From positions 3,151 through 67,150 of the IMG/VR virus record IMGVR_UViG_2887723448_000002: a DNA stretch of 64,000 nt; one strand, 5' to 3'. The notes below the pieces were generated by a model. It was not told where the DNA came from. It did not search any database and worked only from the letters and a program-made list of their open reading frames with translations. Each line of letters opens with the position of its first letter. The first letter of the stretch is position 1. Position numbers and translations under genes: made by a program. Shown here piece after piece: positions 1,529 through 43,286 of the stretch. The stretch comes from a virus. Lineage: Duplodnaviria > Caudoviricetes.

Positions 1529-2243
1529 GCTTGATGTCCAACGCCGCGGCAATTTTCTCACATCGAGCCTGCACCATACCCATGTCGTGATCCGAAAAGC
1601 TGCCCGCACCGGGCCACTGCTTTACTGGAATGACTTCGAAGCCAGCGCTTTGCAGCCAGACGTGATCCTGTTGCGGCCGAGCCTGCCAGCGCGGATCGAT
1701 CCACGGCCACGCCGCCCATGAGTCGGCTCCGTTGAGCACGCAGACCATGCCCGCTAGTTCAGCGGCGTACGTCGCGTAGAACTGCGCATCGCAAAACTTG
1801 GGCGCTTCAAAGCTCCACAAGCCGCCGATCTGGTGAGCCGGCAGGAACAGCGGTGTCAGGTGAGTGCGGCTCGCGCCCAAACTGTGCCCGCACACGGAGA
1901 AGACCGAGCCGGCCGGCGCAACCGACAAGGCCCAATCCCACACCTCTTGCATGCCTGATATAACGCCTTCGGTGACGGTTCCGCCTTTAACCGGATGCGG
2001 ATCAAGAGAGACGTCATCGAAGACATCCAGCAGCTTTAGACTGGATGCGCGCGTGCCCGAGATGCTGAGATGCGTTGTACCAGACGGGTCAACCGAGATC
2101 ACCGCCTGGTTATTTGCATCGCTGAAGATGGAGCTCCACACGTCGCCCAGCGCCTCGAAAGCCGCCTTCGACTGCGCGGCATCTTCGATATAGGCGGCGT
2201 TGGCCCGCTTGGCCGCGGCGGCGGTTGCGGACCAGTCAATCAT
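1506..2243 (-). CDS. class 3 lipase-like alpha/beta hydrolase
   Basis: Nucleophile elbow CGHSLGAS, FEAPK (cf. FGxPR), candidate Asp (GADSW) and His (SDHDM). Confidence 0.8.
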   Translation of the reverse strand: MIDWSATAAAAKRANAAYIEDAAQSKAAFEALGDVWSSIFSDANNQAVISVDPSGTTHLSISGTRASSLKLLDVFDDVSLDPHPVKGGTVTEGVISGMQEVWDWALSVAPAGSVFSVCGHSLGASRTHLTPLFLPAHQIGGLWSFEAPKFCDAQFYATYAAELAGMVCVLNGADSWAAWPWIDPRWQARPQQDHVWLQSAGFEVIPVKQWPGAGSFSDHDMGMVQARCEKIAAALDIKPIVSVAA

Positions 2244-2554
2244 TTTGCCGCCGACGACGCAGCGACAGGCGCCGATGCAGCGGTCGCTGCGATGGCCTTG
2301 TTCACAGCGCAGAATGCGCCGTTACTCAATGCAACAACGCTGAGCGACGGATCCGCCACCGCGGCGGCAGTGACAACGGCTTGACCGACCGGACACGCTG
2401 CATTTACTGACGCGGCGGTAGTCTGGAGCGCGCCGACTGCGGCGCTATTTACGGTCGCAACATTGGTTGCTGCGGTCTGGATTTGCGCGGCCGAGCATGC
2501 GCCGAGAGCGATAGACGCGATGAGGCCTGCCGTGAGGCACAGTTTCTTGAACAT
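2240..2554 (-). CDS. Ala-rich putative lipoprotein
   Basis: MFKKLCLTAGLIASIALGA-C lipobox; GGAG-like SD; ATGA coupling to the lipase gene. Confidence 0.7.
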   Translation of the reverse strand: MFKKLCLTAGLIASIALGACSAAQIQTAATNVATVNSAAVGALQTTAASVNAACPVGQAVVTAAAVADPSLSVVALSNGAFCAVNKAIAATAASAPVAASSAAK

Positions 2555-2577
2555 GGTGATTCCTTCGAGAGGTGGAG

Positions 2578-2700
2578 TTACTGGTAAAAATGGATGGGGA
2601 TGAAACGACAATCCCATGCGGAGACGTGCTCTACGCAGGACGTCGCGCACGCAGACAGACAGAGCACCGCGAGCGCGGCGACGAGGGCTAGGCGCTTCAT
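2578..2700 (-). CDS. small putative lipoprotein (40 aa)
   Basis: MKRLALVAALAVLCLSA-C lipobox. Confidence 0.55.
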   Translation of the reverse strand: MKRLALVAALAVLCLSACATSCVEHVSAWDCRFIPIHFYQ

Positions 2701-2731
2701 GGGAGCCTCAGGGATAAAGACTGCGGGGATT

Positions 2732-2938
2732 TCAGAAGCGCACTGTCGCGCCGACCTTGACCGCCACACCCTCGGCGCCCTTGTTCACGGCGAGCGAGAG
2801 GCTTGTCGAGCGATTCGGCTCTACCAGCAGAACGCAGCAGCCGAGCTCGGCATCCGGGCCGAGGGTGGGCAAAACTTGGGCGTGTTCGACGACCGCGCAG
2901 CCAGACAGCAGCAGTGCCGCGAGTGCGACGCGGATCAC
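2732..2938 (-). CDS. small putative lipoprotein (68 aa)
   Basis: MIRVALAALLLSG-C lipobox; ATGA overlap with the upstream gene. Confidence 0.6.
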   Translation of the reverse strand: MIRVALAALLLSGCAVVEHAQVLPTLGPDAELGCCVLLVEPNRSTSLSLAVNKGAEGVAVKVGATVRF

Positions 2939-3153
2939 TGCGCGGGCGTGGCGGGCTGCGTCGCTACCGGCTTCGCCGCACGCGACGCGAGCCAGTTATA
3001 GCCGGCATGAAGTCCCATCACGACTGCGCCGGCGACCAGCCCGGAGAGATTTGCCGGGGGCAAACCATGAAACCCGCTGATGGCCCAGTTGATCGTCGGG
3101 ACTAGATCGGTCGCGCTAACCGTGAGACCGCCGCTGATGATTGCTTTGTTCAT
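2935..3153 (-). CDS. small membrane protein (holin-like possible)
   Basis: 72 aa with hydrophobic segment LSGLVAGAVVMGLHAGYNWL and a basic/Pro-rich tail. Confidence 0.55.
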   Translation of the reverse strand: MNKAIISGGLTVSATDLVPTINWAISGFHGLPPANLSGLVAGAVVMGLHAGYNWLASRAAKPVATQPATPAQ

Positions 3154-3161
3154 AGATGCTC

Positions 3162-3794
3162 CTATGCGGGTTGGTGAGTCGATGCTCGGACCTTCGACGC
3201 TGCCAGATGCTCGGCCAGCAGCTCGGCCTGGAAGCGCGCTACGGCATCCGGATCTGTGAAGACAGACTGGGTGTTGTTCTGCGCCTTGTAGCCAACGCCA
3301 CCGGGGGCGCCCTTGACGACGAACGTGCCCTCGCCTGACGCACTCCAGTTGGTCGAGCCCTCCGCGCCGACCTTGCCATCTGCCACGAATCCCTTGGTAT
3401 GGCTGATCTGGTGCGTCGAGGACTGCCCGATCACGAAGTGCGTCGAGAAGCCGATCGGGTCTTGCGCAGCATCCGAGGCGAGCAGCTTTCTTTCGTGCAC
3501 GCCGCCGGCCTGCGACTTGTCGAGCGTGATGACGCAGGTAATCGACGGGTCGTGAACGATCTTCATGATCAGCTCGTTGAGCTCGTCGTCGTCATACCCG
3601 AACATGTTCAAGTAGAGCGAGACGGTCACGCGCGACAGGATGTGTTTGAGGATGTCGTGCACATCGTCGCGGCCGACGTAGTACAAGTGGAAGTCCTTCG
3701 ACGCGTTGGGCGAATAGGCGCCCTCCTTCGTGTACGGAGCAAGCTCGAGAAGGTCGAAGGTCTGAAGCGTCGGAGAAAGGATTTTTGTTCTCAT
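3162..3794 (-). CDS. single-HKD phospholipase D / Nuc-family protein
   Basis: SHTKGFVADGKVGAEGSTNWS = HxKxxxxD-x6-GSxN; only one copy of the motif. Confidence 0.8.
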   Translation of the reverse strand: MRTKILSPTLQTFDLLELAPYTKEGAYSPNASKDFHLYYVGRDDVHDILKHILSRVTVSLYLNMFGYDDDELNELIMKIVHDPSITCVITLDKSQAGGVHERKLLASDAAQDPIGFSTHFVIGQSSTHQISHTKGFVADGKVGAEGSTNWSASGEGTFVVKGAPGGVGYKAQNNTQSVFTDPDAVARFQAELLAEHLAASKVRASTHQPA

Positions 3795-40288: not shown

Positions 40289-40446
40289 GGTTGCTCCTTT
40301 TGGCCGACGTTCTTTTCCAGTTGATCGCGAATTAGTTGGACGCAATGACCAATCTCATCGGCTGGAGCATTCCCGAACGCGAGGCCGGCAAGATGGCCTA
40401 GCGCGTAATCAGCGTCTTCAGGCCACTCATCCTTCGGCGTGGTCAT
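40285..40446 (-). CDS. small hypothetical protein
   Basis: GGAG SD; MTTPKDEWPED...; ATGA coupling. Confidence 0.5.
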   Translation of the reverse strand: MTTPKDEWPEDADYALGHLAGLAFGNAPADEIGHCVQLIRDQLEKNVGQKEQP

Positions 40447-41576
40447 GCTGCTATCTCCATTGAAATGAGGTCGTCGACAAGTTGAATGCGCCGGCCGATC
40501 CAAGCCATGCACGGAACGGCCATTGAGTTGCCGAGCGCCTTGTATCGCGGTCCGTCTGCGGCAGGCTTGCCGCGCACAGTGATTCGCGTGTAGTCGTCGG
40601 GAAATCCCTGTAGGCGCTCGCACTCCATTGGGGTCAAGCGCCGAACGGCACTGTCGTGCATGACGGCCTGGTGACCACCGCCGTTCTGATGCGAATTTGA
40701 ATGCCCCATGCTGCGCATCGTCGAGGCGATCTCGCCAATGCCGAAGCCGTTCTGTCCGGATGACTTGCAATCGAATGCCACCGGCACGAGCGGTGTGCCG
40801 CGCCCAGTTCCATCCTCGCTAGCGTCAAAACCTTCTCCGCGAAGCGAATGCGCAACAAGCCGATTCGTGTATGCGTCTTGGCCGCTATATCCGCCAGGGT
40901 GCGAGTCAGAGCACAACGTGCCAGCGATCAGGCCGCCATCGCACTCGAAGTCGGTTCCGAGTCCGCCACCGCCTTTAGTGCGAGCGCTAAGGGTCGGGGC
41001 AATTCCTTCCCGCGATTTCCTGCTCGGCGCAGAATCCCCGCGCATGCTCTCGCGCTCAAAAAGTACTGCGGCGGCAGGTCGCCAGTCTCCAAGATGTCCG
41101 ATAACGAACACACGGCGGCGTCGCTGGGCCACTCCGAAGTACTGAGCGTCAAGAACCCGGTAGGCGAACCCATACCCGAGTTCTGCCAGCCCTCCGAGGA
41201 GGGTTCCAAAATCCCTTCCGCCGTTTGATGACAGGACGCCGGGGACGTTTTCCCAGACCAGCCAGCGGGGAGCGTAGCGCTCAGCAATGGCAAGATAGGT
41301 GAGCATGAGGTTGCCACGCGGATCAGCCAGTCCCTTTCTGAGTCCGGCGACGCTGAAGCTTTGGCAGGGAGTTCCGCCGACGAGAAGATCGATAGCTGCA
41401 TCAGGCCAATCCTTGAATTTAGTCATGTCGCCCAGATTCGGCACATGCGGGTAGTGGTGAGCCAGCACGGCTGACGGGAACGGCTCGATCTCACTCAGGA
41501 ATTCAGCGCGCCATCCGAGTGGATGCCAGGCGCAGCTCGCCGCCTCGATGCCGCTGCAAACGCTACCGAAGATCAT
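40443..41576 (-). CDS. DNA (cytosine-5)-methyltransferase
   Basis: Motifs I (SVCSGIE), IV (GGTPCQSFS), VI (WENVPG), VIII (QRRRRVFVIG), IX (RRLTPMECERLQGFPD), X (ALGNSMAV). Confidence 0.95.
   Translation of the reverse strand: MIFGSVCSGIEAASCAWHPLGWRAEFLSEIEPFPSAVLAHHYPHVPNLGDMTKFKDWPDAAIDLLVGGTPCQSFSVAGLRKGLADPRGNLMLTYLAIAERYAPRWLVWENVPGVLSSNGGRDFGTLLGGLAELGYGFAYRVLDAQYFGVAQRRRRVFVIGHLGDWRPAAAVLFERESMRGDSAPSRKSREGIAPTLSARTKGGGGLGTDFECDGGLIAGTLCSDSHPGGYSGQDAYTNRLVAHSLRGEGFDASEDGTGRGTPLVPVAFDCKSSGQNGFGIGEIASTMRSMGHSNSHQNGGGHQAVMHDSAVRRLTPMECERLQGFPDDYTRITVRGKPAADGPRYKALGNSMAVPCMAWIGRRIQLVDDLISMEIAA
40928..41401 (-). CDS. nested alternative-frame ORF inside the methyltransferase (candidate second subunit)
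   Basis: 157 codons, same strand, shifted frame, AAGGA 8 nt before the ATG; carries SLSDILETGDLPPQYFLSARACAGILRRA. Confidence 0.65.
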   Translation of the reverse strand: MQLSIFSSAELPAKASASPDSERDWLIRVATSCSPILPLLSATLPAGWSGKTSPASCHQTAEGILEPSSEGWQNSGMGSPTGFLTLSTSEWPSDAAVCSLSDILETGDLPPQYFLSARACAGILRRAGNRGKELPRPLALALKAVADSEPTSSAMAA

Positions 41577-42004
41577 GCTGCCTCCCGTTGTTGTTCGATC
41601 TCAATTCCAAGCTTCGCCGCCCGCGCCGGCTCCCACCGCTCATATGCGTCATCCCAGACCTTGAACTTGAATTCGCGAGTCGCCGGCCCTTGGTCGATAA
41701 AAACATGGCACGCACGGCATCCGGGTACGGAATATTCGTGCTTCGCTTTGATCCCCATGCCCTTGCCGTGGCGACTCTGATTCGAATGACAGGGAACTAC
41801 CGTGGCTGAGTCGTGCAGGCACACGCCGAACACGCTCAGGAAGCAAGGCTCACCGCGGCACGCCGCGAGATACTTCGACCCGTCGGCCACGGTCGGCTTC
41901 TTCCGCTTCGGCTTCCCCGAGAACGGCTTCCCGGGCTTGAATGACGAGAGGGGCGCACCCTGCTTGCGCTTGAATCCCGTACGCGCGAGTCCTGAGCGCC
42001 TCAC
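41573..42004 (-). CDS. DUF1364/YbcO-like nuclease-fold protein
   Basis: ACRGEPC...VVPCHSNQ...GKGMGIK...PGCRACH; GTG start overlapping the upstream stop. Confidence 0.7.
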   Translation of the reverse strand: MRRSGLARTGFKRKQGAPLSSFKPGKPFSGKPKRKKPTVADGSKYLAACRGEPCFLSVFGVCLHDSATVVPCHSNQSRHGKGMGIKAKHEYSVPGCRACHVFIDQGPATREFKFKVWDDAYERWEPARAAKLGIEIEQQREAA

Positions 42005-42285
42005 CCGATCACCCGATAGTGCTTGCCAGCGATGTGCTCCAACACCGGCTGCGGCTCTTCTTCCCAAACGCAATCGATACCGTTCAGCCGCTTACCGCCC
42101 TGATCCCATCGCGTGACGGCGTGCCAGAACGGCGATCGCTCGCCCGGTTGCGTCGGTACGGGGTCAAGCGATTTATTCAGCACAATCGGCCCGCAGTAGT
42201 AGTGCATCTCGAATGTCCAGCGCTCGCCCTTGGCGTCGGTGATCGTGCGCGTCGGGCCGGCAAACGATATGTGGATCAGATTCAA
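42001..42285 (-). CDS. hypothetical protein (start uncertain)
   Basis: ORF tiles between its neighbours with 4-nt overlaps. Confidence 0.5.
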   Translation of the reverse strand: MNLIHISFAGPTRTITDAKGERWTFEMHYYCGPIVLNKSLDPVPTQPGERSPFWHAVTRWDQGGKRLNGIDCVWEEEPQPVLEHIAGKHYRVIG

Positions 42286-42497: not shown

Positions 42498-42625
42498 AGA
42501 TTCTTCCCGGCAAGGAAGATCGAGGCCACTGCCAGGGCCAGTCCTATGACTCCTGCCACGGGATGCGGAACCGTAGGAGCTATCCAAATTGCGCCCAAGA
42601 GCGCTAGAAAATCGCTTCGTTTCAT
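42494..42625 (-). CDS. small membrane peptide (43 aa)
   Basis: MKRSDFLALLGAIWIAPTVPHPVAGVIGLALAVASIFLAGKNL; ATGA coupling on both sides. Confidence 0.5.
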   Translation of the reverse strand: MKRSDFLALLGAIWIAPTVPHPVAGVIGLALAVASIFLAGKNL

Positions 42626-43080
42626 AGAAAGCTCACCATGCGGTCGACAACTTCATCCAGATCCGCCCGCGAGTAATTCCGCAGGACCTTTTGCAGTAGC
42701 ACGTTTGCTACGGCTGAATAGACGCGCTCGAATTCCTCGTCGTCCATGCTCGCGAAGCTGATGCTGTGCGCCTCAGCGCGAACTTCGCCCTTCAGATTGG
42801 CCACAGCGTCGTAGAAGCCGGCTGCGATGATGCAATCCTTGCGGAACCGCTCGCGGCTCTTTTGCACCGGTAGCCCTCGATGCTCGGTCTCGGGCGGCTC
42901 GAAGGCATCGAAGCCGATATCCAGCATCGCGAAGAATTTCCGATGGAACTTCGAATTGCGCATGAACGAGACTTCAGCGCGCACCGTGGCTCCGACTTTG
43001 AAGCGGCGGCACTTGTCGGCCTCGCCTTCACCGAGCGGGATCAGGTAGCCTTGGGGCGTCTTGGTGAGCAGGACTTCCAT
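42622..43080 (-). CDS. DUF1367 family (NinB-like) protein
   Basis: RNSKFHRKFFAML, SISFASMDDEEFERVY. Confidence 0.8.
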   Translation of the reverse strand: MEVLLTKTPQGYLIPLGEGEADKCRRFKVGATVRAEVSFMRNSKFHRKFFAMLDIGFDAFEPPETEHRGLPVQKSRERFRKDCIIAAGFYDAVANLKGEVRAEAHSISFASMDDEEFERVYSAVANVLLQKVLRNYSRADLDEVVDRMVSFL

Positions 43081-43286
43081 CAGGCCTTCGCTCCCGTGAA
43101 GAAACGAAAGACACGCTGGTGGAAGGGCTTGCGCGGCTCCCACAATCGAAGCTCAGCCCCGCGCGAACAGCGGCCGCCGTATTGCAGCTCTGTCGAGCAG
43201 TAATACCCAGTCACCTGGCAGCGCCAATACTCGCGGGGATATCCATACCGATGCGCGCATGTGTTGCAATTGCGTTCGTCGCTCAC
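43080..43286 (-). CDS. Cys-rich hypothetical protein
   Basis: CNTCAH...C...C...C; GTGA overlap. Confidence 0.5.
   Translation of the reverse strand: MSDERNCNTCAHRYGYPREYWRCQVTGYYCSTELQYGGRCSRGAELRLWEPRKPFHQRVFRFFTGAKA

What the first reader, a model, noticed from the sequence alone, without database searches (positions are those of the whole stretch)
40928..41401. Complete second ORF nested in a shifted frame inside the C5 methyltransferase
Seen: 157 stop-free codons on the same strand as the MTase, spanning motifs IV-VIII, with an AAGGA SD 8 nt before its ATG. Its C-terminus SLSDILETGDLPPQYFLSARACAGILRRA resembles the L-x-DIL...Y-x-LS segment that follows motif VIII in many single-chain C5 MTases; the main frame lacks this segment after motif VIII. 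Known: M.EcoHK31I needs a beta polypeptide encoded in an alternative frame within its alpha gene. Inference: a heterodimeric, overprinted phage MTase. Unlike the reported EcoHK31I split, the main frame here still carries the motif IX-like RRLTP...QGFPD.
Basis: partly seen in the sequence, partly recalled or inferred. Interest (0 to 1): 0.7.

Follow-up and report, generated by a model that had tools for sequence, protein, structure and literature searches.

The report
Hidden gene inside phage methyltransferase
A second, 157-residue protein is encoded one base out of step inside this prophage's DNA cytosine methyltransferase gene; selection keeps it in phages of many bacterial phyla, it is almost never annotated, and it probably works with the enzyme, though that was not tested here.

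Summary
ORF 40928-41401 (-) lies at +1 inside the C5 methyltransferase gene 40443-41576 (-), with AAGGA 8 nt before its ATG. Its length alone is unremarkable in this 61% G+C gene (P=0.30). The comparative evidence shows a real gene:
- The frame sits at the same +1 offset in 11 of 11 phage records and 64 of 65 bacterial genome loci.
- It stays open in low-G+C phages (0 of 5000 shuffles for MM1 and Brochothrix).
- Synonymous sites of the methyltransferase are frozen only inside the overlap (codon identity 0.80 against 0.47-0.54).
- The start codon is kept by synonymous choice (Asp59 is GAT in 59 of 59).
- One relative carries an insertion that codes only in the nested frame.

Function is inferred, not shown. 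I favour an accessory chain of the enzyme. In recurrent natural variants the whole nested domain is fused to the enzyme's C-terminal half, giving overlapping alpha/beta genes. Its N-terminus (QLSIF) matches the beta-clamp-binding consensus and is kept over unrelated main-frame contexts.

It is not EcoHK31I-like in detail: motif IX stays in the main frame.

The GenBank record of pneumophage MM1 already annotates a homologue as 'beta subunit', and this scan found the gene before on other DNA.

The parts
40443..41576 (-). Host gene: single-chain C5 cytosine DNA methyltransferase, 377 aa, motifs I, IV, VI, VIII, IX and X all in this frame
   Evidence: ORF list. Pfam PF00145 E 2.6e-52. TIGR00675 E 3.9e-51. 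AF2 model is confident for residues 1-175 and 311-377, and below pLDDT 50 for 176-310.
40928..41401 (-). Nested +1-frame gene, 157 codons plus TGA (stop at 40928-40930), overlapping MTase codons 59-216
   Evidence: Homologues at the same +1 offset in 11/11 phage records and 64/65 genome loci. Synonymous-site constraint is confined to this span. Alt-frame aa identity is 0.72-0.84 inside against 0.30-0.48 outside.
41410..41414 (-). Shine-Dalgarno-like AAGGA, 8 nt upstream of the nested ATG (main frame Lys55-Asp56)
   Evidence: Sequence. ttcAAGGAatggcccgATG is kept in about 70 of 80 IMG/VR loci. Lys55 is AAG in 57/62. MM1 and Brochothrix phages have AGGAG / GGAGG before their nested ATG.
41399..41401 (-). 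Nested start codon ATG, made from Asp59 GAT plus the G of Ala60
   Evidence: Asp59 is GAT in 59 of 59 Asp-bearing non-redundant homologues, against 37-43% GAT elsewhere in the same genes.
41384..41398 (-). Nested residues 2-6, QLSIF: N-terminal motif matching the beta-clamp-binding consensus QL[SD]LF
   Evidence: Q[LMI][ST][IMLF][FLW] at residue 2-3 in most homologues. It is held by rare synonymous codons: Ala60 GCA 54/54, Leu64 CTT 55/55. It is kept over unrelated main-frame residues in phages Dove (QLDLF), MM1 (QMTLF), Brochothrix (QLTLF) and TC7 (QLTLL). Consensus taken from PMC9690074.
40958..41110 (-). Nested residues 98-148, the universally conserved core (CSLSDILE..YFLSxxACxGILRRAxxRGKxLPxxLxxAL). 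It overlaps the MTase linker after motif VIII.
   Evidence: Nearly invariant columns L100 S101 L104 E105 L115 A119 G122 I123 L124 R125 R126 R130 P135 L138 L142. This is the only confidently folded part of the nested model: helices 117-130 and 136-148, pLDDT 89-97. Here the alt frame is better conserved than the main frame: 0.78 against 0.59 at MTase codons 181-200.
40596..40643 (-). Motif IX (RRLTPMECERLQGFPD) in the main frame, outside the nested ORF
   Evidence: Translation. Invariant or near-invariant columns R312-D327 in alignment A3.

Best explanation
The nested ORF is a real protein-coding gene overprinted on the catalytic core of a prophage C5 cytosine methyltransferase. It is translated from its own AAGGA/ATG inside the MTase mRNA. 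Its 157-residue product has three parts: an N-terminal QLSIF peptide, a conserved Ser/Pro/Trp/Gly-rich middle that has no fold on its own, and a basic C-terminal helical hairpin. I propose that it is a non-catalytic partner chain of the MTase, with the hairpin and middle region docking on the enzyme near the junction between motif VIII and the target-recognition region. Shown here: the gene is real and under purifying selection, it is very widespread, and in some relatives it is covalently part of the enzyme's C-terminal half. Inferred: that the free protein binds the single-chain MTase of this window, and what that binding does (assembly or stabilisation of the small domain, and possibly tethering to the sliding clamp through QLSIF).
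For: Real gene:
- The +1 offset is conserved in 11/11 phage records and 64/65 GTDB genome loci from many phyla.
- The frame is open far beyond synonymous shuffles in low-G+C phages: MM1 161 codons 0/5000, Brochothrix 156 codons 0/5000, Javan105 P=0.002, Vibrio K453 P=0.001.
- Codon identity among same-residue pairs is 0.80 inside the overlap, against 0.54, 0.47 and 0.47 in the flanks, with steps at the ORF ends.
- The start codon and motif are held by rare synonymous codons.
- An insertion of about 80 codons in L089 reads as protein in the nested frame and as junk in the MTase frame.
- There are 3754 clusters at 50% identity with E<=1e-3.

Link to the enzyme:
- The nested gene was found only inside this MTase subfamily.
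- 63 of 104 longer or variant proteins are nested domain + TRD + IX-X fusions, and 54 of the 63 keep the nested part to residue 130 or beyond. Random frameshifts would scatter the junctions.
- At DNA level, L194 and L225 have an alpha ORF (motifs I-VIII) overlapping a beta ORF (nested + TRD + IX-X).
- P0209 carries the C-terminal segment in frame after motif VIII.
- The structured and unstructured parts are complementary. Nested 110-150 is confident where MTase 176-216 is not, and nested 1-100 is weak where the MTase core is confident.
- Analogy: the N-terminal 42-67 residues of EcoHK31I beta mediate association with alpha (PMC2836561).
Against: No test of binding, translation or activity was possible. 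The main frame is a complete single-chain MTase with all motifs, so nothing obviously needs complementing. The nested protein has no detectable similarity to any MTase model or solved structure. The fused forms are a small minority, and some may be pseudogenes or assembly errors; L296 and about 6 simple-frameshift proteins look like that. Sharing DNA does not prove that two proteins interact. The poor AF2 model of MTase 176-310 may only reflect a shallow, indel-rich alignment.
Confidence: 0.55

Rival explanations
1. A real gene whose product acts independently of the MTase, for example by binding the host beta sliding clamp through QLSIF to disturb or redirect host replication, or as an anti-defence protein. 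On this view the overlap only gives co-expression in the early operon.
For: The N-terminal Q-L-[STD]-[LIMF]-[FLW] motif is conserved over different main-frame contexts and matches the QL(S/D)LF consensus. The protein is largely unfolded alone, as short-motif adaptors and inhibitors often are. One metagenomic ORF joins a Pol I-like polymerase to the nested frame (P0172).
Against: The universally conserved part is the C-terminal hairpin, not the N-terminal motif. Firmicutes-phage and P1/K453 versions lack a clear QLxLF. Recurrent fusions are to the MTase C-terminal half. The gene was never seen away from this MTase subfamily.
Confidence: 0.25
2. One reading: an obligate heterodimer in which the nested chain supplies the canonical post-motif-VIII segment missing from the main frame, so that neither chain alone methylates DNA (EcoHK31I-like).
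For: The conserved C-terminal segment lies on the same nucleotides as the stretch just after motif VIII. It is found in frame after motif VIII in P0209 and directly before the TRD in the fused beta forms. EcoHK31I sets the precedent.
Against: No HMM or profile similarity to canonical C5 MTases at that segment. The main frame keeps its own conserved post-VIII motif (AAVLFERES, near-invariant in A3) and motifs IX-X.
Confidence: 0.15
3. Not a gene: the open frame and the frozen synonymous sites are by-products of a highly conserved catalytic core, G+C-rich codon usage, an RNA or DNA element, or recent mosaic exchange of this segment.
For: In the window itself the open frame is expected by chance (P=0.30). 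The +1 frame of these MTases is intrinsically fairly open, with shuffle means of 57-145 codons. Terrisporobacter, Ruminococcus and Providencia phages are not individually significant.
Against: MTase codons 1-58 are as conserved in protein (0.81) as the overlap but have free synonymous sites (0.54 against 0.80). The frame is stop-free at 39-42% G+C. Start codon and SD are conserved by synonymous choice. Alt-frame identity exceeds main-frame identity at codons 181-200. There is an insertion that codes in the nested frame only, and the +2 frame is never unusual.
Confidence: 0.05

Closest known systems
M.EcoHK31I (E. coli HK31, YGGCCR), a heterodimeric C5 MTase
   Same: A second polypeptide is encoded entirely within another reading frame of the MTase gene on the same strand. 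In EcoHK31I the N-terminal 42-67 residues of beta mediate association with alpha (PMC2836561), which is the role I infer for the nested domain.
   Different: EcoHK31I beta carries motif IX and alpha lacks it. Here motifs IX and X are in the main frame, and the nested product has no recognisable MTase motif. Sequence homology to EcoHK31I beta could not be tested, because no sequence was available in the tools.
Pneumophage MM1-1998 orf13/orf14, annotated 'C5 methyltransferase alpha subunit / beta subunit' (GenBank DQ113772)
   Same: orf14 (141 aa) is nested at +1 in orf13. The window's nested protein matches it in frame (38.8% identity, E 5e-5). It is the same gene family in a phage region of about 39% G+C.
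   Different: This is an annotation only. I could not read the MM1 paper (not held) and know of no experiment. The MM1 version ends earlier, lacking the RRAxKRGKxLP tail.
Split C5 MTases with separate alpha (I-VIII) and beta (IX-X) chains, such as M.AquI (own knowledge)
   Same: Relatives L194 and L225, and 63 metagenomic proteins, split the enzyme after motif VIII into alpha and beta chains. Mycobacteriophage Dove splits it into genes 107 and 108.
   Different: In these relatives the beta chain begins with the nested domain, encoded in the +1 frame over about 480 nt of alpha. The window's own enzyme is not split.
Phage P1 Dmt (bifunctional Dam/C5 methyltransferase)
   Same: P1 dmt contains a homologous +1 ORF (163 open codons, shuffle P=0.02; 36% identity over residues 24-146). 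531 plasmid records, mostly Escherichia and Salmonella, match under the same Dam-family methyltransferase annotation.
   Different: The nested ORF starts between motifs IV and VI, has a different N-terminal half, and is not annotated in NC_005856.
DNMT1-PCNA tethering through a PIP box (eukaryotes)
   Same: A works-like analogy only: a short Q-x-x-hydrophobic clamp-binding peptide attached to a cytosine MTase system. DNMT1 is listed among PCNA partners in PMC9690074.
   Different: The kingdom and the clamp differ. The motif would sit on a separate small protein, and binding is wholly untested.

Membership tests
EcoHK31I-type heterodimeric C5 MTase | Second polypeptide encoded wholly inside the MTase gene in another frame, same strand | tested here: met
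   40928-41401 lies inside 40443-41576, offset +1.
EcoHK31I-type heterodimeric C5 MTase | Beta chain carries motif IX and the alpha chain lacks it | tested here: not met
   RRLTP..QGFPD is in the main frame at residues 312-327. The nested product has no PF00145 or TIGR00675 match even at E<=1-10.
EcoHK31I-type heterodimeric C5 MTase | Both chains are required and associate | not testable with these tools
EcoHK31I-type heterodimeric C5 MTase | Sequence homology of the nested product to EcoHK31I beta | not tested
   The EcoHK31I sequence is not in the phage, plasmid or PDB collections searched, and no supplement is held.
MM1 orf14-type nested 'beta subunit' ORF family of phage C5 MTases | Homologous ORF at +1 within a PF00145 gene, retained under selection | tested here: met
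   In-frame match to MM1 orf14. +1 offset in 11/11 phage records and 64/65 genome loci. Synonymous constraint. phrog_16143 E 6.9e-8.
C5 cytosine DNA methyltransferase (PF00145), the host gene | Motifs I, IV (PCQ), VI (ENV), VIII (QRRR), IX and X in one chain | tested here: met
   Pfam E 2.6e-52, TIGR00675 E 3.9e-51, motifs read directly.
Bacterial beta-clamp-binding proteins (QL[SD]LF motif) | Consensus pentapeptide at a terminus or in a flexible region | tested here: met
   QLSIF at residues 2-6, pLDDT <50 (flexible). Variants QLDLF, QLTLF, QMTLF occur in distant phages. Consensus from PMC9690074.
Bacterial beta-clamp-binding proteins (QL[SD]LF motif) | Binding to the hydrophobic cleft of DnaN | not testable with these tools
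Overlapping (overprinted) protein-coding gene | Suppressed synonymous change in the host frame limited to the overlap, plus conserved start and absence of stops across lineages | tested here: met

The most novel reading that the evidence does not exclude
The nested protein is a clamp adaptor. [quoted passage not shown] The phage enzyme would then ride on clamps left on freshly replicated DNA and methylate it before host restriction enzymes can cut. This would be a bacterial-virus counterpart of DNMT1-PCNA coupling, encoded as a gene within the methyltransferase gene.
Probability: 0.3. Interest if true: 0.85.

Novelty: new variant of a known kind. Interest (0 to 1): 0.68.

Why it matters
Long same-strand overlapping genes are thought to be rare in DNA phages and bacteria, and annotation pipelines discard them. 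This one is about 150 codons long and is conserved in phages and prophages of at least seven bacterial phyla. It is present in model phage P1 and in hundreds of P1-like plasmids, yet it is missing from nearly every annotation. If the product is a subunit or adaptor of orphan phage methyltransferases, work on the specificity, kinetics and anti-restriction role of these enzymes has probably overlooked a component, because cloning the gene expresses both proteins. The overlap also shows how the family moves between single-chain and split alpha/beta enzymes by one-base frame changes. It gives a tractable system (P1 dmt in E. coli) for studying dual-coding constraint. A clamp-tethered methyltransferase would be a new principle in phage counter-defence.

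Tried and rejected
Tools that could not be used:
- The MM1 genome paper PMC151507 is not held, and the EcoHK31I paper has no supplement held.

Searches that found nothing for the nested product:
- Pfam and NCBIfam at E<=10.
- phmmer and profile search against all PDB sequences at E<=10.
- Foldseek against PDB.
- VIA wide search: best Z 4.1, on a generic helical hairpin.
- ESM Atlas gives only viral 'hypothetical protein' clusters.
- Literature searches found no paper on this nested gene.

Ideas considered and rejected:
- A chance ORF in G+C-rich DNA. This is true for the window alone but is contradicted by relatives.
- RNA structure or mosaic exchange as the cause of frozen synonymous sites. 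The steps coincide with the ORF ends, the start codon is kept, stops are avoided at low G+C, and one insertion codes in the nested frame only.
- A hybrid protein made by programmed frameshifting, main to +1 and back. This needs two shifts over overlapping nucleotides. No slippery site was looked for, so it is rated unlikely rather than excluded.
- A second copy elsewhere in the genome. There is none.

Full report
**What is there**

On the minus strand, 40443..41576 encodes a 377-residue C5 cytosine methyltransferase (PF00145 E 2.6e-52; TIGR00675 E 3.9e-51). All canonical motifs are in one frame: PCQ 70-72, ENV 109-111, QRRRR 151-155, RRLTP..QGFPD 312-327 and GNSMAVP 349-355.

The gene sits in a lambdoid-type early region. 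Upstream are a YbcO-like nuclease gene, whose end overlaps the MTase start, and a DUF1367 gene. The host is a Burkholderiaceae bacterium, judging by its DnaN.

Inside the MTase gene, one base out of step, lies an ORF of 157 codons at 40928..41401. It starts at position 2 of Asp59 and runs to MTase codon 216. AAGGA lies 8 nt upstream of its ATG.

**Is it more than chance?**

Not in this window alone. The gene is 61% G+C, and synonymous-codon shuffles give a +1 open run of 145 codons on average, so the observed 164 has P=0.30. The evidence comes from relatives.

- The translated ORF finds 158 phage records by tblastn. Hosts include Vibrio, Streptococcus, Mycobacterium, Escherichia, Caulobacter, Pseudanabaena, Akkermansia and Ruminococcus.
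- It also finds 531 plasmid records, mostly Escherichia and Salmonella, where the listed matches lie under Dam-family methyltransferase genes as in P1 dmt, 425 IMG/VR stretches, 65 GTDB genome loci from many phyla and 3754 protein clusters at 50% identity.
- In all 11 phage records whose annotation I inspected, the match lies at +1 relative to the annotated MTase. The same holds for 64 of 65 genome loci. The exception, L296, is a frameshifted gene.
- In low-G+C phages the frame stays open far beyond expectation. MM1 has 161 codons and Brochothrix phage 156, each matched by 0 of 5000 shuffles. Javan105 has P=0.002, Vibrio K453 P=0.001 and P1 P=0.02. The +2 frame is never unusual.

**Selection**

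I aligned 62 non-redundant homologues and measured codon identity among pairs that share the MTase residue. It is 0.80 across the overlap (codons 59-216). It is 0.54 for codons 1-58, which are equally conserved as protein, and 0.47 for each of the two regions downstream of the overlap (codons 217-300 and 301-377). The steps fall at the ORF ends.

Amino-acid identity in the nested frame is 0.72-0.84 inside the overlap and 0.30-0.48 outside. At MTase codons 181-200 the nested frame is better conserved than the MTase frame (0.78 against 0.59).

The start is held by synonymous choice. The table gives usage at four codons against the background for the same amino acid in the same genes.

| Main-frame codon | Usage at this site | Background |
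|---|---|---|
| Asp59 GAT | 59 of 59 | 37-43% |
| Ala60 GCA | 54 of 54 | 23% |
| Leu64 CTT | 55 of 55 | 11% |
| Gly68 GGA | 61 of 62 | 17% |

Gram-positive phages have AGGAG or GGAGG before their nested ATG.

In L089, an insertion of about 80 codons between WPD and motif IV reads as Cys/Arg-rich junk in the MTase frame. In the nested frame it reads as a protein-like N-terminal extension. Together these results exclude a by-product, an RNA element or mosaicism. This is a genuine overlapping gene.

**The product**

It has no Pfam, NCBIfam or PDB relative, by sequence or by fold.

AlphaFold2 with 97 sequences gives mean pLDDT 66. Only residues 110-150 are confident, forming two helices at 117-130 and 136-148. 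That segment (CSLSDILE..YFLSxxACxGILRRAxxRGKxLPxxLxxAL) is the universally conserved core.

The MTase model is the mirror image. It is confident for 1-175 and 311-377 and below pLDDT 50 for 176-310. So the nested protein is ordered where the host frame is not, and the reverse. This is consistent with overprinting on an older catalytic core.

The N-terminus carries Q-[LMI]-[STD]-[LIMF]-[FLW] at residue 2 in most homologues. The motif persists where the underlying MTase residues are unrelated:

| Phage or window | Nested-frame motif | MTase residues beneath |
|---|---|---|
| Window | QLSIF | AAIDLL |
| Dove | QLDLF | LRSAGF |
| MM1 | QMTLF | SDDTIR |
| Brochothrix phage | QLTLF | TVDVIC |
| TC7 (ORF starts after motif IV) | QLTLL | not tabulated |

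This matches the bacterial beta-clamp-binding consensus QL(S/D)LF (PMC9690074). Firmicutes-phage, P1 and K453 versions lack it, so it is a lineage feature rather than the core.

**Link to the enzyme**

Among 104 longer or odd-length database proteins, 63 consist of the nested domain followed in frame by TRD + IX + X. In 54 of the 63 the nested part is kept to residue 130 or beyond. Random frameshifts would scatter the junctions.

At DNA level, L194 has an alpha ORF (218 aa, motifs I-VIII, PF00145 E 7.9e-45). It overlaps by 482 nt a beta ORF of 429 aa, made of the nested domain, TRD and IX-X. L225 is similar.

Mycobacteriophage Dove splits the MTase into genes 107 and 108, with the nested ORF inside 107. 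One protein, P0209, carries the conserved C-terminal segment in frame after motif VIII.

So the nested domain recurs in three forms: free, fused to the N-terminus of the C-terminal half, or fused to the C-terminus of the catalytic half. In both fused forms it sits at the motif VIII / TRD junction. This is the best evidence that it is part of the enzyme assembly.

It also parallels EcoHK31I, whose beta N-terminus mediates association with alpha (PMC2836561). It remains inference.

**Comparison with the known**

It works like EcoHK31I in having a second chain from an alternative frame. It fails EcoHK31I's defining feature, because motif IX is not in the nested chain.

The closest precedent is the GenBank annotation of pneumophage MM1-1998. 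Its orf14 is nested at +1 in orf13, is labelled 'C5 methyltransferase beta subunit', and matches our ORF in frame. I could not read the MM1 paper and found no functional study.

Earlier agents of this scan reached the same conclusion on other genomes and raised the clamp idea. I re-derived the selection evidence independently. I added the context-independence of the motif, the split alpha/beta architecture and the order/disorder complementarity. I could not test clamp binding.

**Verdict**

- A real, widespread and almost unannotated overlapping gene: about 0.9.
- It acts as a partner chain of the methyltransferase: about 0.55.
- It acts as a clamp adaptor: about 0.3.
- Novelty: a new variant of the EcoHK31I kind of dual-frame methyltransferase gene.

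Noticed in passing
L089:2652-3812 (MTase frame) and L089:2827-3537 (nested frame): An insertion of about 80 codons between the WPD motif and motif IV reads as Cys/Arg-rich junk in the MTase frame. In the nested frame it reads as a protein-like N-terminal extension resembling a TRD module (LMFTLNTADRHAVAV). The top representative clusters P0214-P0219 carry such extensions.
   Followed up: partly
L194:2326-2982 / 2501-3790; L225:1562-2224 / 1716-3158: Natural split methyltransferases. An alpha ORF (motifs I-VIII) overlaps by about 480 nt a beta ORF made of the nested domain plus TRD plus motifs IX-X. The junctions differ between loci, so the fusions arose more than once.
   Followed up: partly
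P0209 (294 aa, metagenome): A diverged MTase alpha-like protein carries the nested C-terminal segment (LSDILE..YSLSARACQGILNRAAKRGKELP) in frame about 30 residues after motif VIII, after an LFE-like motif. This is an un-overlapped version, seen on a single short contig only.
   Followed up: no
P0172 (850 aa, metagenome): A Pol I-like DNA polymerase ORF has no stop and reads on into the nested frame of the downstream MTase. This gives a polymerase-nested-domain fusion on paper; it may be an artefact.
   Followed up: no
window 41573-42073 (-) and 41574-41576: The upstream YbcO-like nuclease gene (PF07102, E 4.8e-7) ends at 41573 and overlaps the MTase ATG by four bases (ATGA), which suggests translational coupling. 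A DUF1367 gene lies at 42622-43143. This is a lambdoid nin-type region.
   Followed up: partly
window 40647-41051 (MTase residues 176-310): The whole region between motif VIII and motif IX of the MTase (135 residues, Gly/Ser-rich, with repeated modules such as AFDCKxSGxNGFG) gets pLDDT below 50 in AF2. This may reflect a shallow, indel-rich alignment, or a domain that folds only with DNA or a partner.
   Followed up: no
L296:1132-2795 (Collinsella sp.): An MTase is broken by a +1 frameshift after motif VI, so ORF1 reads motifs I-VI and then the nested frame, while ORF2 carries motifs VIII-X. It is probably a pseudogene or an assembly error, and it is the only genome locus with offset 0.
   Followed up: partly
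L003:1811-2929 (Mycobacterium phage Dove genes 107, 108): The MTase is split by an in-frame stop into genes 107 and 108, both annotated as DNA methyltransferase. The un-annotated nested ORF (159 codons, QLDLF near its start) lies inside gene 107.
   Followed up: partly
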